Source: a virus
Taxonomy: Duplodnaviria > Heunggongvirae > Uroviricota > Caudoviricetes
Strand: one strand, 5' to 3'
Length of the DNA: 64,000 nt
Virus record (IMG/VR): IMGVR_UViG_2718217789_000006
Each line of letters begins with the position of its first letter. Position 1 is the stretch's first letter. The translations under genes were made by a program, and so were the position numbers. This document shows, piece after piece, positions 33,570 to 35,131 of the stretch. Below the pieces are notes generated by a model. The model was given only the letters and a program-made list of their open reading frames with translations. It made no database searches and was not told where the DNA came from.

Positions 33570-34628
33570 ATGCTTAATACTGTAAAAATATCCAGCTGTG
33601 AGTTAGTCAACGCCGACTGCCTGGAATTTATCCGGTCGTTACCCGAAAATTCTGTTGACCTGATAGTCACGGACCCGCCGTACTTTAAAGTGAAGCCCGA
33701 GGGCTGGGATAACCAGTGGACGGGTGATGAGGATTACCTGAAATGGCTGGACCAGTGTCTGGCGCAGTTCTGGCGGGTGCTGAAACCTGCCGGAAGTCTT
33801 TACCTGTTCTGTGGCCATCGCCTGGCATCTGATATCGAAATCATGATGCGTGAACGCTTCAGTGTGCTGAACCATATTATCTGGGCGAAGCCGTCCGGAC
33901 GCTGGAACGGGTGCAACAAGGAAAGCCTGAGGGCGTATTTCCCCGCCACAGAGCGCATTCTGTTCGCGGAACATTATCAGGGGCCGTATCGTCCGAAAGA
34001 TGCCGGGTATGAGGCGAAGGGCAGGGCACTGAAACAGCATGTGATGGCTCCGCTGATTTCTTACTTTCGTGATGCGCGTGCTGCCCTGGGGATAACGGCA
34101 AAACAGATAGTGGATGCCACAGGAAAGAAAAACATGGTGTCGCACTGGTTCAGTGCCAGTCAGTGGCAGCTACCGAACGAAAGCGATTATCTGAAATTAC
34201 AGGCGCTGTTTGCCCGGGTGGCAGAAGAGAAGCATCAGCGGGGTGAACTGGAGAAGCCCCACCACCAGCTGCTGGAGACGTATACTTCACTGAACCGGCA
34301 GTATGCGGAACTACAGAGTGAATATAAGCATCTGCGGCGGTATTTTGGCGTGACGGCGCAGGTGCCGTACACGGATGTGTGGACGCATAAACCGGTGCAG
34401 TACTATCCCGGGAAACATCCGTGCGAAAAACCGGCAGAAATGCTGCAGCAGATAATCAGTGCGAGCAGTCGTCCGGGTGACCTGGTTGCAGATTTCTTCA
34501 TGGGGTCGGGTTCGACAGTCAAAGCCGCGATGGCGCTGGGGCGTCGTGCAACTGGCGTTGAGCTGGAGACTGAACGTTTTGAGCAGACGGTCAGGGAAGT
34601 ACAGGATTTAGTCAGTCAGAACGGATGA
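33570..34628 (+). CDS. DNA N6-adenine methyltransferase (beta-class)
   Basis: 352 aa; catalytic DPPY (LIVTDPPYF) near N-terminus, AdoMet-binding FFMGSGST near C-terminus. Confidence 0.85.
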   Translation: MLNTVKISSCELVNADCLEFIRSLPENSVDLIVTDPPYFKVKPEGWDNQWTGDEDYLKWLDQCLAQFWRVLKPAGSLYLFCGHRLASDIEIMMRERFSVLNHIIWAKPSGRWNGCNKESLRAYFPATERILFAEHYQGPYRPKDAGYEAKGRALKQHVMAPLISYFRDARAALGITAKQIVDATGKKNMVSHWFSASQWQLPNESDYLKLQALFARVAEEKHQRGELEKPHHQLLETYTSLNRQYAELQSEYKHLRRYFGVTAQVPYTDVWTHKPVQYYPGKHPCEKPAEMLQQIISASSRPGDLVADFFMGSGSTVKAAMALGRRATGVELETERFEQTVREVQDLVSQNG

Positions 34629-34877
34629 TATTGCAGAATTAACCGGGTATCAGGTACGCCCCGAAAATTTTAAATGTCTCACAATTCAGACGGTTGACAG
34701 TTGTCTGGTTTGCGGGGAGTTTGTTAAAAGAAACTGGCATGGTGAATCCCCCTGAGCGGAGGGGCATATCAGCGCAGGTGTTTCTACTCTATCCTTTCTG
34801 TGCGGGTTCAGGTGCTGATACTGAACTCACCGGGAGGCACCCGGCACCATGCATATGGTTAACAGACACGTAGCGAA

Positions 34878-34903
34878 GCCCCTCTCCGGAGGGGCTTTTT
34901 TTA
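34878..34903 (+). terminator. Rho-independent terminator upstream of nanS-p
   Basis: GCCCCTCTCCGGAGGGGC hairpin followed by TTTTTTT; followed by a second hairpin with an A-run upstream (terminator in the opposite orientation). Confidence 0.55.
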
Positions 34904-35131
34904 TGGGCAAAAAAAGCCCGCGCTGGGAGACGCGGGCGGCAAGGAATAAACAACAAAACGTGAAGTAATATTTCAGCTGGCGAATAATACCCCATGGTAA
35001 TCACTCTGCGCAACTGCGCGGCCTTTTTCGAATTGCGGGCTGTAAGTCTCCCTTCTGCCATTGTCCTGTAACTTCCGAACTTCAGCCCGCTCTTTATCTG
35101 ATTCAGTACACTATCCCGGCCGGGAGGATTC

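What the first reader, a model, noticed from the sequence alone, without database searches (positions are those of the whole stretch)
33570..35131. Late region has Stx-phage layout but carries an N6-adenine methyltransferase and no stx
The order Q, promoter plus tR'-like terminator, cargo, NanS-p-like esterase, S21-type holin, SAR endolysin, Rz/Rz1 matches what I recall for Stx-converting phages, but the cargo slot holds a beta-class N6-adenine MTase (DPPY) and a small ORF instead of tRNA genes and stxAB. The methylase would be expressed under Q control during lytic growth, consistent with anti-restriction protection of progeny DNA.
Basis: partly seen in the sequence, partly recalled or inferred. 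Interest (0 to 1): 0.5.

Follow-up and report, generated by a model that had tools for sequence, protein, structure and literature searches.

The report
Ordinary stx-free lambdoid prophage late region
This is the late-gene region of a common toxin-free E. coli O157:H7 prophage, and its methylase is a close relative of the already characterised non-specific adenine methylase M.EcoGII, which true Shiga-toxin phages carry at the same place next to the toxin genes, so the finding is ordinary.

Summary
The order is Q, pR'/tR', a 65-aa ORF, a beta-class DPPY methylase, NanS-p, P21-type holin, SAR-type endolysin and Rz/Rz1. The 64-kb window holds no tRNA gene and no stx.

The claim that the methylase sits "instead of" tRNA-stxAB is wrong. 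Stx2a, Stx2c and Stx2d phages carry the same small ORF and the same methylase (98% aa identity) upstream of their tRNA-stxAB genes. What the window lacks is a 1.65-kb tRNA-stxAB module that lies between the methylase stop and the STnc100 sRNA gene in those phages. Here a 33-nt spacer occupies that position.

The "small ORF" after the methylase is most likely the STnc100 sRNA (Rfam RF02076, 148 bits).

The methylase is about 93% identical to M.EcoGII, the published non-specific N6-adenine methylase. M.EcoGII is silent in lysogens, and its authors proposed that it protects phage DNA from restriction. Homologues occur in 1914 of 5426 complete E. coli genomes.

The window is 100% identical across the junction and its flanks to E. 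coli O157:H7 strain 9000. Among the 80 related prophage loci sampled, stx-free versions outnumbered stx-bearing ones.

Verdict: real, but already known. Low interest.

The parts
32174..32995 (+). Antiterminator Q (273 aa, QuuQ type)
   Evidence: Pfam PF03589 Antiterm, E 5e-52, two stretches. It is 97% identical to the quuQ gene of Stx2a phage Stx2_EH1910. RefSeq names it 'antitermination protein'.
33001..33028 (+). Candidate late promoter pR' (TTGATT, 16-nt spacer, extended -10 TGgTAAATT)
   Evidence: Read directly from the sequence. It matches 8 of 12 consensus positions and so falls below the threshold of the consensus scan. The position just after Q is the expected one. This is inferred, not shown.
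33078..33099 (+). tR'-like intrinsic terminator
   Evidence: Six G-C pairs, 4-nt loop, then TTTTTT. Homology to Stx phages that carry a different Q begins at 33079. The Q/pR' module boundary therefore lies at this hairpin.
33222..33419 (+). 65-aa conserved ORF of unknown function, followed by a terminator-like hairpin at 33406-33423
   Evidence: PHROG 331, E 2e-37. There is a weak sub-threshold TrmB winged-helix hit, E 0.002. It is annotated as hypothetical in RefSeq and in Stx phages. It is 72% identical to the ORF ahead of the methylase in Citrobacter phage phiNP. It also occurs without the methylase in 11 of 80 sampled loci.
33570..34628 (+). Beta-class N6-adenine DNA methyltransferase, M.EcoGII type (352 aa)
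   Evidence: PF01555, E 7e-44. DPPY lies at residues 35-38 and FxGxG near residue 310. It is 325/349 identical to the M.EcoGII sequence in PMC11551740 Table S1. It is 98% identical to the methylases of Stx2a phages and of phage 1720a-02. The best PDB relatives are beta-class enzymes, including M.RsrI and CcrM.
34642..34674 (+). 33-nt spacer at the position where Stx phages carry the 1.65-kb tRNA-stxAB module
   Evidence: Pairwise blastn and a direct read of both junctions. The spacer aligns with the sequence just after tciB in phage JLK-2012.
34708..34908 (+). STnc100 sRNA gene with its own terminator (34875-34898)
   Evidence: Rfam RF02076, 148.1 bits against a gathering score of 47, model positions 1-206 of 206. 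Terminator scan. In Stx2 phages the same element lies just downstream of stx2B (PMC12370729).
35132..37078 (+). NanS-p type sialate O-acetylesterase (648 aa)
   Evidence: Pfam DUF1737 + SASA + DUF6645. It is 98% identical to the gene annotated 'yjhS: 9-O-acetyl-N-acetylneuraminic acid deacetylase' in Stx2_12E129.
37216..37681 (+). Two small conserved late ORFs: DUF1378 (37216-37395) and DUF826 (37436-37681)
   Evidence: Pfam DUF1378, E 2e-39. PHROG 311 and 8301. RefSeq annotation.
37759..37974 (+). Class II (P21 S-type) holin
   Evidence: Pfam PF04971, E 2e-32. The RefSeq start gives 71 aa.
37979..38512 (+). Lysozyme-family endolysin with a hydrophobic N-terminal (SAR-like) segment
   Evidence: Pfam PF00959, E 2e-24. 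The N-terminus reads MSRKLRYGLSAAVLALIAAGASAPEIL. The SAR character is inferred from the sequence.
38811..39278 (+). Rz spanin, with Rz1 embedded at 39031-39216 in another frame
   Evidence: ORF list. RefSeq names it 'lysis protein'. The Rz1 candidate has a signal-peptide and lipobox-like N-terminus ending ...LVVSAC (inferred).

Best explanation
**What it is.** The interval is the head of the late operon of an stx-negative lambdoid prophage of E. coli O157:H7. It belongs to the same backbone family as many Stx2a, Stx2c and Stx2d phages.

**The methylase.** It is an M.EcoGII-type, sequence-non-specific, beta-class N6-adenine methyltransferase. It is a resident late gene of this backbone and lies upstream of the variable slot, not in it.

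**The variable slot.** It lies between the methylase stop and the STnc100 sRNA. In Stx phages it holds three tRNAs plus stxAB. In many relatives it holds only tRNAs. Here it holds a 33-nt spacer.

**Likely mechanism (inferred).**
- In the lysogen, pR' transcripts stop at tR', so the methylase is silent.
- After induction, Q-modified RNA polymerase reads through tR' and the following hairpins.
- The methylase is then made together with the lysis and morphogenesis genes and methylates adenines broadly in replicating phage DNA.
- Packaged genomes then enter new hosts protected from m6A-sensitive restriction systems.

**Shown versus inferred.** Sequence identity, gene order, and the absence of stx and tRNA are shown. 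Non-specific activity and silence in the lysogen are taken from published work on M.EcoGII. Q dependence and the protective role in this prophage are inferred.
For: - **Backbone.** Stx2a-converting phages match 83-90% of window 32100-39300 at 93-97% nucleotide identity.
- **Same genes in Stx phages.** Annotated Stx phages carry the same small ORF and methylase ahead of tRNA-stxAB, at 98% aa identity.
- **Breakpoints.** Homology ends 13 nt after the methylase stop and resumes about 41 nt after stx2B.
- **Methylase identity.** It is 93% identical to M.EcoGII over its full length. Murray et al. report M.EcoGII as non-specific, unexpressed in the lysogen and harmful when expressed constitutively. 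They name phage 1720a-02 as carrying a very similar enzyme and propose evasion of restriction.
- **Position in other genera.** Homologues sit directly before the holin in Citrobacter phiNP and Vibrio Val-yong3.
- **Transcription signals.** The tR' hairpin lies between Q and the methylase, and no consensus sigma-70 promoter was found on the + strand ahead of the methylase.
- **Frequency of the methylase.** The gene is present at 80% coverage or more in 1914 of 5426 complete E. coli genomes.
- **Frequency of the stx-free junction.** 245 genomes hold it, 65 of them at 99% identity or more, all O157:H7-type records in the rows shown.
- **Sampled relatives.** Of 80 IMG/VR loci with the same small ORF, 31 have methylase + tRNAs + STnc100 + NanS-p without stx, 5 are window-like, and 3 carry stx.
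- **Published note.** Shaaban et al. reported Stx-negative prophages with gene content very similar to Stx prophages in this strain set (PMC5359411).
Against: - No expression or methylation data exist for this particular prophage.
- The pR' assignment was made by eye and fails the scan's consensus threshold.
- A weak extended -10-like TGgTAAATG at 33436-33444, ahead of the methylase, cannot be excluded as an internal promoter.
- The M.EcoGII sequence came from a machine-read PDF table and may contain reading errors, so 93% is approximate.
- Most of the 24 substitutions lie in the central target-recognition region, so unchanged specificity is likely but not proven.
- The IMG/VR sample was the 80 best matches to the small ORF, so its proportions are not population estimates.
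Confidence: 0.82

Rival explanations
1. The prophage is a former Stx phage that lost its tRNA-stxAB module by deletion. On this reading the stx-free state is secondary.
For: The flanks are 97% (methylase side) and 88% (STnc100/nanS-p side) identical to Stx2a phage Stx2_12E129, and the missing block has sharp edges. A preprint on Pas sRNAs suggests repeated stx loss as one explanation for esterase-holin operons that lack stx.
Against: No tRNA or stx remnant remains. The 33-nt spacer is not a deletion scar. It is homologous to the sequence upstream of STnc100 in phages that carry tciAB instead, which points to exchange of modules by recombination. Stx-free states, with or without tRNAs, are the majority among sampled relatives. 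The direction of change cannot be decided from these data.
Confidence: 0.2
2. One reading: the methylase is cargo (a moron) that occupies the slot used by tRNA-stxAB in Stx phages, as an alternative payload.
For: The methylase lies between Q and nanS-p, the broad region where lambdoid phages carry accessory genes.
Against: Stx phages carry the methylase and stx together, in the order methylase, tRNAs, stx. 933W-like phages such as P13374 keep a 37-codon 3' stub of the methylase directly upstream of the tRNAs. Homologues in Citrobacter and Vibrio phages precede the holin with no accessory genes nearby.
Confidence: 0.04
3. The methylase serves mainly something other than anti-restriction. Examples are RNA methylation or control of phage or host gene expression late in infection.
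For: M.EcoGII also methylates RNA and DNA:RNA hybrids in vitro. A different Stx-phage methylase (MT-A70 type) was reported to act on 16S rRNA (PMC10810198).
Against: M.EcoGII acts about 90-fold faster on DNA than on RNA in the SUPREM paper's Table S3. The MT-A70 enzyme is an unrelated gene at another prophage position. A late position just before packaging fits DNA protection.
Confidence: 0.1
4. The gene is an inert passenger in a defective prophage and has no current function.
For: Many O157 prophages are defective (general knowledge). The tail assembly protein T gene of this prophage is annotated as partial.
Against: The ORF is full length with both catalytic motifs intact. The junction region that includes the methylase 3' end is 100% conserved in the top-listed O157:H7 genomes. 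The gene is kept at 90% identity or more in over 1500 E. coli genomes. The prophage retains integrase, replication, Q, lysis, terminase, portal and tail genes.
Confidence: 0.08

Closest known systems
M.EcoGII (and M.EcoGI), non-specific beta-class N6-adenine methyltransferases of E. coli O104:H4 C227-11 prophages (Murray et al. 2018, PMC5778455)
   Same: About 93% aa identity over the full length. The motif order is the same: DPPY, central target-recognition region, FxGxG. Both are encoded on prophages. The window enzyme is 98% identical to the phage 1720a-02 methylase that the authors name as a close relative.
   Different: There are 24 substitutions, mostly in residues 230-255, and three extra C-terminal residues. 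Activity and specificity of this allele are untested.
Late regions of Stx2a/2c/2d-converting phages of the methylase-bearing type (Stx2_EH1910, Stx2_12E129, 1720a-02)
   Same: They share the Q (EH1910), tR', small ORF, methylase, STnc100, nanS-p, DUF1378, DUF826, holin, endolysin and Rz, at 88-98% identity.
   Different: The window lacks the 1.65-kb block of three tRNA genes plus stx2A and stx2B, and has a 33-nt spacer there.
stx-negative lambdoid phages with methylase, tRNAs and STnc100 (Nil3, Lahn2, TL-2011a, phi296, PhiR49_2)
   Same: The same methylase 3' end and the same STnc100 unit, with no stx.
   Different: They keep the three tRNA genes between the methylase and STnc100. The window has none.
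Phage JLK-2012 (O55:H7) late region
   Same: The same spacer, STnc100 and nanS-p arrangement downstream of the variable slot.
   Different: It has a different Q and carries tRNA-Asn/Thr/Gly and tciAB in place of the small ORF and methylase.

Membership tests
M.EcoGII family of non-specific beta-class N6-adenine methyltransferases | Beta-class motif order: N-terminal DPPY, central target-recognition region, C-terminal FxGxG | tested here: met
   DPPY lies at residues 35-38 and FFMGSGST near residues 309-316. PF01555 covers residues 29-340. The nearest PDB relatives are beta-class enzymes.
M.EcoGII family of non-specific beta-class N6-adenine methyltransferases | Close full-length sequence similarity to M.EcoGII | tested here: met
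   325/349 identical, with 2 gaps, against the sequence in PMC11551740 Table S1. 98% identical to the 1720a-02 methylase.
M.EcoGII family of non-specific beta-class N6-adenine methyltransferases | Methylates adenine in any sequence context | not testable with these tools
   Needs the cloned enzyme or SMRT/nanopore methylome data. Inferred from identity only.
M.EcoGII family of non-specific beta-class N6-adenine methyltransferases | Silent in the lysogen, expressed on induction | not testable with these tools
   The position downstream of the tR' hairpin fits this. Published for M.EcoGII only.
Stx-converting bacteriophage | Carries stxA and stxB | tested here: not met
   tblastn with Stx2A and Stx2B gives a best E of 0.85. 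blastn with the cassette gives only a 24-nt match.
Stx-converting bacteriophage | tRNA genes (Met/Ile-Arg-Arg) upstream of stx in the late operon | tested here: not met
   ARAGORN finds 0 tRNA genes in 64 kb.
Stx-converting bacteriophage | Late-region synteny: Q, pR'/tR', (stx), nanS-p, holin, endolysin, Rz | tested here: met
STnc100 sRNA (Rfam RF02076) | Covariance-model score above the family's gathering threshold over the full model | tested here: met
   148.1 bits against 47, model positions 1-206 of 206, E 7e-33.
NanS-p prophage sialate O-acetylesterases | DUF1737 N-terminus, SASA esterase domain and DUF6645 C-terminal domain, encoded between Q and the lysis genes | tested here: met
   Pfam hits. 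98% identity to the annotated yjhS of an Stx2a phage. Enzyme activity was not tested.

The most novel reading that the evidence does not exclude
SOS induction can wake several O157 prophages in one cell. A non-specific methylase made by this stx-negative prophage could then act in trans. It would methylate the DNA of co-induced Stx2a phages whose own methylase is reduced to a stub, giving toxin phages broad protection from restriction in new hosts. This would be a prophage-prophage helper effect on stx spread. Nothing here tests it. It rests only on three observations: the enzyme's expected lack of specificity, three methylase-matching places in strain 9000, and the 37-codon stubs in 933W/P13374-type Stx2a phages.
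Probability: 0.12. Interest if true: 0.5.

Novelty: already known. Interest (0 to 1): 0.1.

Why it matters
It matters little as a discovery. The enzyme family, its prophage location, its silence in lysogens and its proposed anti-restriction role are published, and stx-negative relatives of Stx phages in O157:H7 are documented.

The practical value is a corrected map of the locus. The variable slot for tRNA-stx lies between the methylase stop and the STnc100 sRNA, and the methylase is backbone. This helps when annotating stx-negative prophages and when judging whether a strain lost or never had stx. It also flags that a large share of E. coli genomes (35% of complete ones) carry a potentially genome-wide adenine methylase that would be switched on by prophage induction.

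Tried and rejected
- **Remnants.** I looked for tRNA or stx remnants with ARAGORN, tblastn and sensitive blastn and found none.
- **Koudelka-lab rRNA methylase.** I checked whether the methylase is the Stx-phage rRNA methyltransferase reported by that lab (PMC10810198). It is not. That enzyme is an MT-A70 protein, gp5, at another prophage position.
- **Two-gene module.** I tested whether the 65-aa ORF and the methylase form an obligate pair. The pair is conserved in Citrobacter phiNP, but 11 of 80 sampled loci have the ORF without the methylase and Vibrio Val-yong3 has the methylase without it. I did not pursue this further.
- **Other RNAs.** I searched Rfam at a permissive threshold for further RNAs around pR'/tR' and the methylase. 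Only sub-threshold hits appeared, which I treat as chance.
- **ORFs after the methylase.** The 114-aa minus-strand ORF and the 59-aa ORF have no Pfam support and only one marginal PHROG hit, and neither has a RefSeq annotation.
- **Literature gaps.** The paper on pR' regions of Stx prophages (PMC6266700) does not mention the methylase. The supplement of the M.EcoGII paper is not held, so I took the sequence from the SUPREM paper instead.
- **Structure prediction.** I judged it unnecessary at 93% identity to a characterised enzyme.

Full report
**What is there**

The window matches the chromosome of E. coli O157:H7. Positions 34300-35400 are 100% identical to strain 9000 (NZ_CP018252.2) and to dozens of other O157:H7 genomes. 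The RefSeq annotation of that stretch shows a complete-looking lambdoid prophage lying behind another prophage.

Around the finding, ORF listing, Pfam and PHROG scans give this order:
- DUF968 protein, 30741-31790
- RusA, 31803-32177
- Q antiterminator, 273 aa, 32174-32995
- 65-aa ORF, 33222-33419
- DNA methylase, 352 aa, PF01555, 33570-34628
- NanS-p type esterase, 35132-37078
- DUF1378 and DUF826 proteins
- P21-type holin
- lysozyme-family endolysin with a hydrophobic N-terminus
- Rz with embedded Rz1
- small and large terminase subunits

A strong terminator-like hairpin (six G-C pairs followed by T6) lies at 33078-33093, about 80 nt after Q. Just upstream I read a promoter-like TTGATT, 16-nt spacer, TGgTAAATT at 33001-33028. 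This falls below the consensus threshold of the scan, so the pR' assignment is an inference.

**No tRNA, no stx**

ARAGORN finds no tRNA gene anywhere in the 64 kb. tblastn with Stx2A and Stx2B taken from an Stx2a phage finds nothing better than E 0.85. A sensitive blastn with the whole tRNA-stx cassette finds only one 24-nt chance match elsewhere.

**The methylase is not in the stx slot**

The best matches to window 32100-39300 in the phage collection are Stx2a-, Stx2c- and Stx2d-converting phages. They cover 83-90% of the query at 90-97% identity. Their annotations show Q, a hypothetical 65-aa ORF, 'DNA methylase', tRNA-Met, tRNA-Arg, tRNA-Arg, stx2A, stx2B, then yjhS/nanS-p. Phage 1720a-02 has the same order. 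Their methylases are 98% identical in protein sequence to the window's, and their small ORFs are 95-98% identical.

Pairwise alignment places the difference precisely. Homology to Stx2_12E129 runs to window 34641, which is 13 nt past the methylase stop. It resumes at 34675, which corresponds to about 41 nt past the stx2B stop. In between, the Stx phage has 1651 bp (three tRNAs plus stx2AB) and the window has 33 nt. The methylase is therefore backbone that Stx phages also carry, and the variable slot lies downstream of it.

Two further observations support this:
- 933W-like Stx2a phages, such as the O104:H4 phage P13374, keep only the last 37 codons of the methylase, directly after their tR' and directly before the tRNAs. 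PhiR49_2 keeps the last 98 codons.
- Homologues in other genera sit at the head of the lysis cassette with no accessory genes nearby. In Citrobacter phage phiNP the order is an unrelated Q, a small ORF (72% identical), the methylase (78%), then the holin. In Vibrio phage Val-yong3 the methylase (58%) is followed directly by holin, endolysin and spanins.

**What fills the rest of the interval**

Between the methylase and nanS-p, Rfam finds a full-length STnc100 sRNA (RF02076) at 34708-34908. It scores 148 bits against a gathering score of 47, and it ends in a terminator hairpin at 34875-34898. The mechanical ORFs in this interval are 59 aa on the plus strand and 114 aa on the minus strand. They have no Pfam support, only one marginal PHROG hit, and no RefSeq annotation.

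In Stx2 phages the same sRNA lies just downstream of stx2B. Others have noted this (PMC12370729), and it is discussed as a marker of this phage family in a recent preprint. Its function is not established.

**Origin of the stx-free junction**

The 33-nt spacer is not random filler. Together with the STnc100 unit it aligns to the sequence right after tciB in phage JLK-2012 and to several ECOR-derived phages. Those phages have other genes in place of the methylase.

Other relatives have the methylase, three tRNAs and then STnc100, with no stx. These include Nil3, Lahn2, TL-2011a, phi296 and PhiR49_2.

I took the 80 IMG/VR loci with the most similar small ORF and classified them by script:
- 31 have full methylase + 2-3 tRNAs + STnc100 + NanS-p without stx
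- 5 are window-like, with no tRNA
- 3 carry stx
- 11 have the small ORF and NanS-p but no methylase

The sample is biased towards close relatives. Even so, it shows that the 'Stx-phage layout' is the general layout of a large class of E. coli lambdoid prophages, and that Stx phages are the minority state. Module exchange by recombination explains the window better than a simple deletion. The direction of change (loss or never gained) cannot be settled here. [quoted passage not shown]

**Identity and likely action of the methylase**

The protein has DPPY at residues 35-38 and an FxGxG-type motif near residue 310. This is the beta-class order, and its nearest solved relatives are beta-class enzymes.

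It is 325/349 identical to M.EcoGII, using the sequence in Table S1 of the SUPREM paper. That table was read by machine from a PDF, so a few mismatches may be reading errors.

Murray et al. (PMC5778455) reported the following for M.EcoGII:
- It methylates adenine in any sequence context.
- It is not expressed in the lysogen, and constitutive expression harms the cell.
- It belongs to a very large family in E. coli prophages.
- Phage 1720a-02 carries a very similar enzyme.
- The enzymes are probably used to overcome host restriction.

The window enzyme is 98% identical to the 1720a-02 enzyme. The SUPREM supplement's kinetics table (Table S3) lists DNA and RNA methylation rates for two reconstructed ancestors of M.EcoGII as well, which shows that the activity is not confined to a single allele.

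The window adds one point of context. The gene lies after the tR' hairpin and after a second hairpin at 33406-33423, with no consensus promoter of its own on the plus strand. This fits silence in the lysogen and Q-dependent read-through after induction. That step, and the protective effect on progeny DNA, are inferences for this prophage.

**How common it is**

The methylase gene is present at 80% coverage or more in 1914 of 5426 complete E. coli genomes, with up to seven matching places per genome and three places in strain 9000. The stx-free methylase-to-nanS-p junction is present in 245 genomes.

**Verdict**

It is half wrong: the methylase is not an alternative to stx. The feature is already known and ordinary, and interest is low.

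The one reading with some novelty is that a non-specific methylase from an stx-negative prophage could protect co-induced Stx phages in trans. This is pure speculation and I rate it unlikely.

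Noticed in passing
window 28286-30296 (GC 40-43% island, 28000-30300): A type II restriction-modification pair sits in the nin region of the same prophage. It consists of a DNA cytosine methyltransferase (28286-29404) and an NgoMIV-family endonuclease (29418-30296). The endonuclease has no PHROG match. An adenine methylase would not protect the published NgoMIV recognition site, GCCGGC (stated from prior knowledge, not tested here), because it contains no adenine.
   Followed up: partly
window 28169-28349 (+): An Rfam 'sok antitoxin' match sits just above threshold (61 bits against a gathering score of 59) immediately upstream of, and overlapping the start of, the cytosine methylase gene. 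I did not look for a hok-like toxin ORF.
   Followed up: no
L007 2501-2611 (phage P13374); L006 3273-3566 (PhiR49_2): 933W/O104-type Stx2a phages keep only the last 37 codons of the M.EcoGII-type methylase, between tR' and the tRNA genes. PhiR49_2 keeps the last 98 codons. This suggests that the tRNA-stx2 module was first joined to the methylase 3' end and that the methylase was later cut away by exchange of Q/pR' modules.
   Followed up: partly
window 33018-33027 and 33433-33442: The decamer TGTGGTAAAT occurs twice. One copy is in the pR' candidate. The other lies just after the small ORF's terminator, about 130 nt ahead of the methylase. The second copy could be a weak extended -10 element. 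It was not tested.
   Followed up: no
window 33222-33419; loci L019, L031, L037, L054, L058, L072-L075, L079, L081: The 65-aa ORF (PHROG 331, with a weak winged-helix hint) is the first conserved gene after tR'. It is found both with and without the methylase. Its function is unknown.
   Followed up: partly
window 1-16300 and 46300-62000: The window spans two tandem prophages with near-duplicate tail modules (matching ORF sizes). Three DUF1076 domain proteins lie at about 14138-16279, just before the integrase (16861-18156, minus strand) of the second prophage.
   Followed up: no
window 27436-28101: RefSeq annotates an 'epoxyqueuosine reductase QueH' homologue in the prophage early/nin region, just upstream of the restriction-modification pair.
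   Followed up: no
window 34909-34997 (-) and 34916-34937 (-): A minus-strand terminator-like hairpin sits back to back with the STnc100 terminator. A sub-threshold OmrA-B-like Rfam hit (26 bits against a gathering score of 40) lies on the minus strand. This is probably chance.
   Followed up: no
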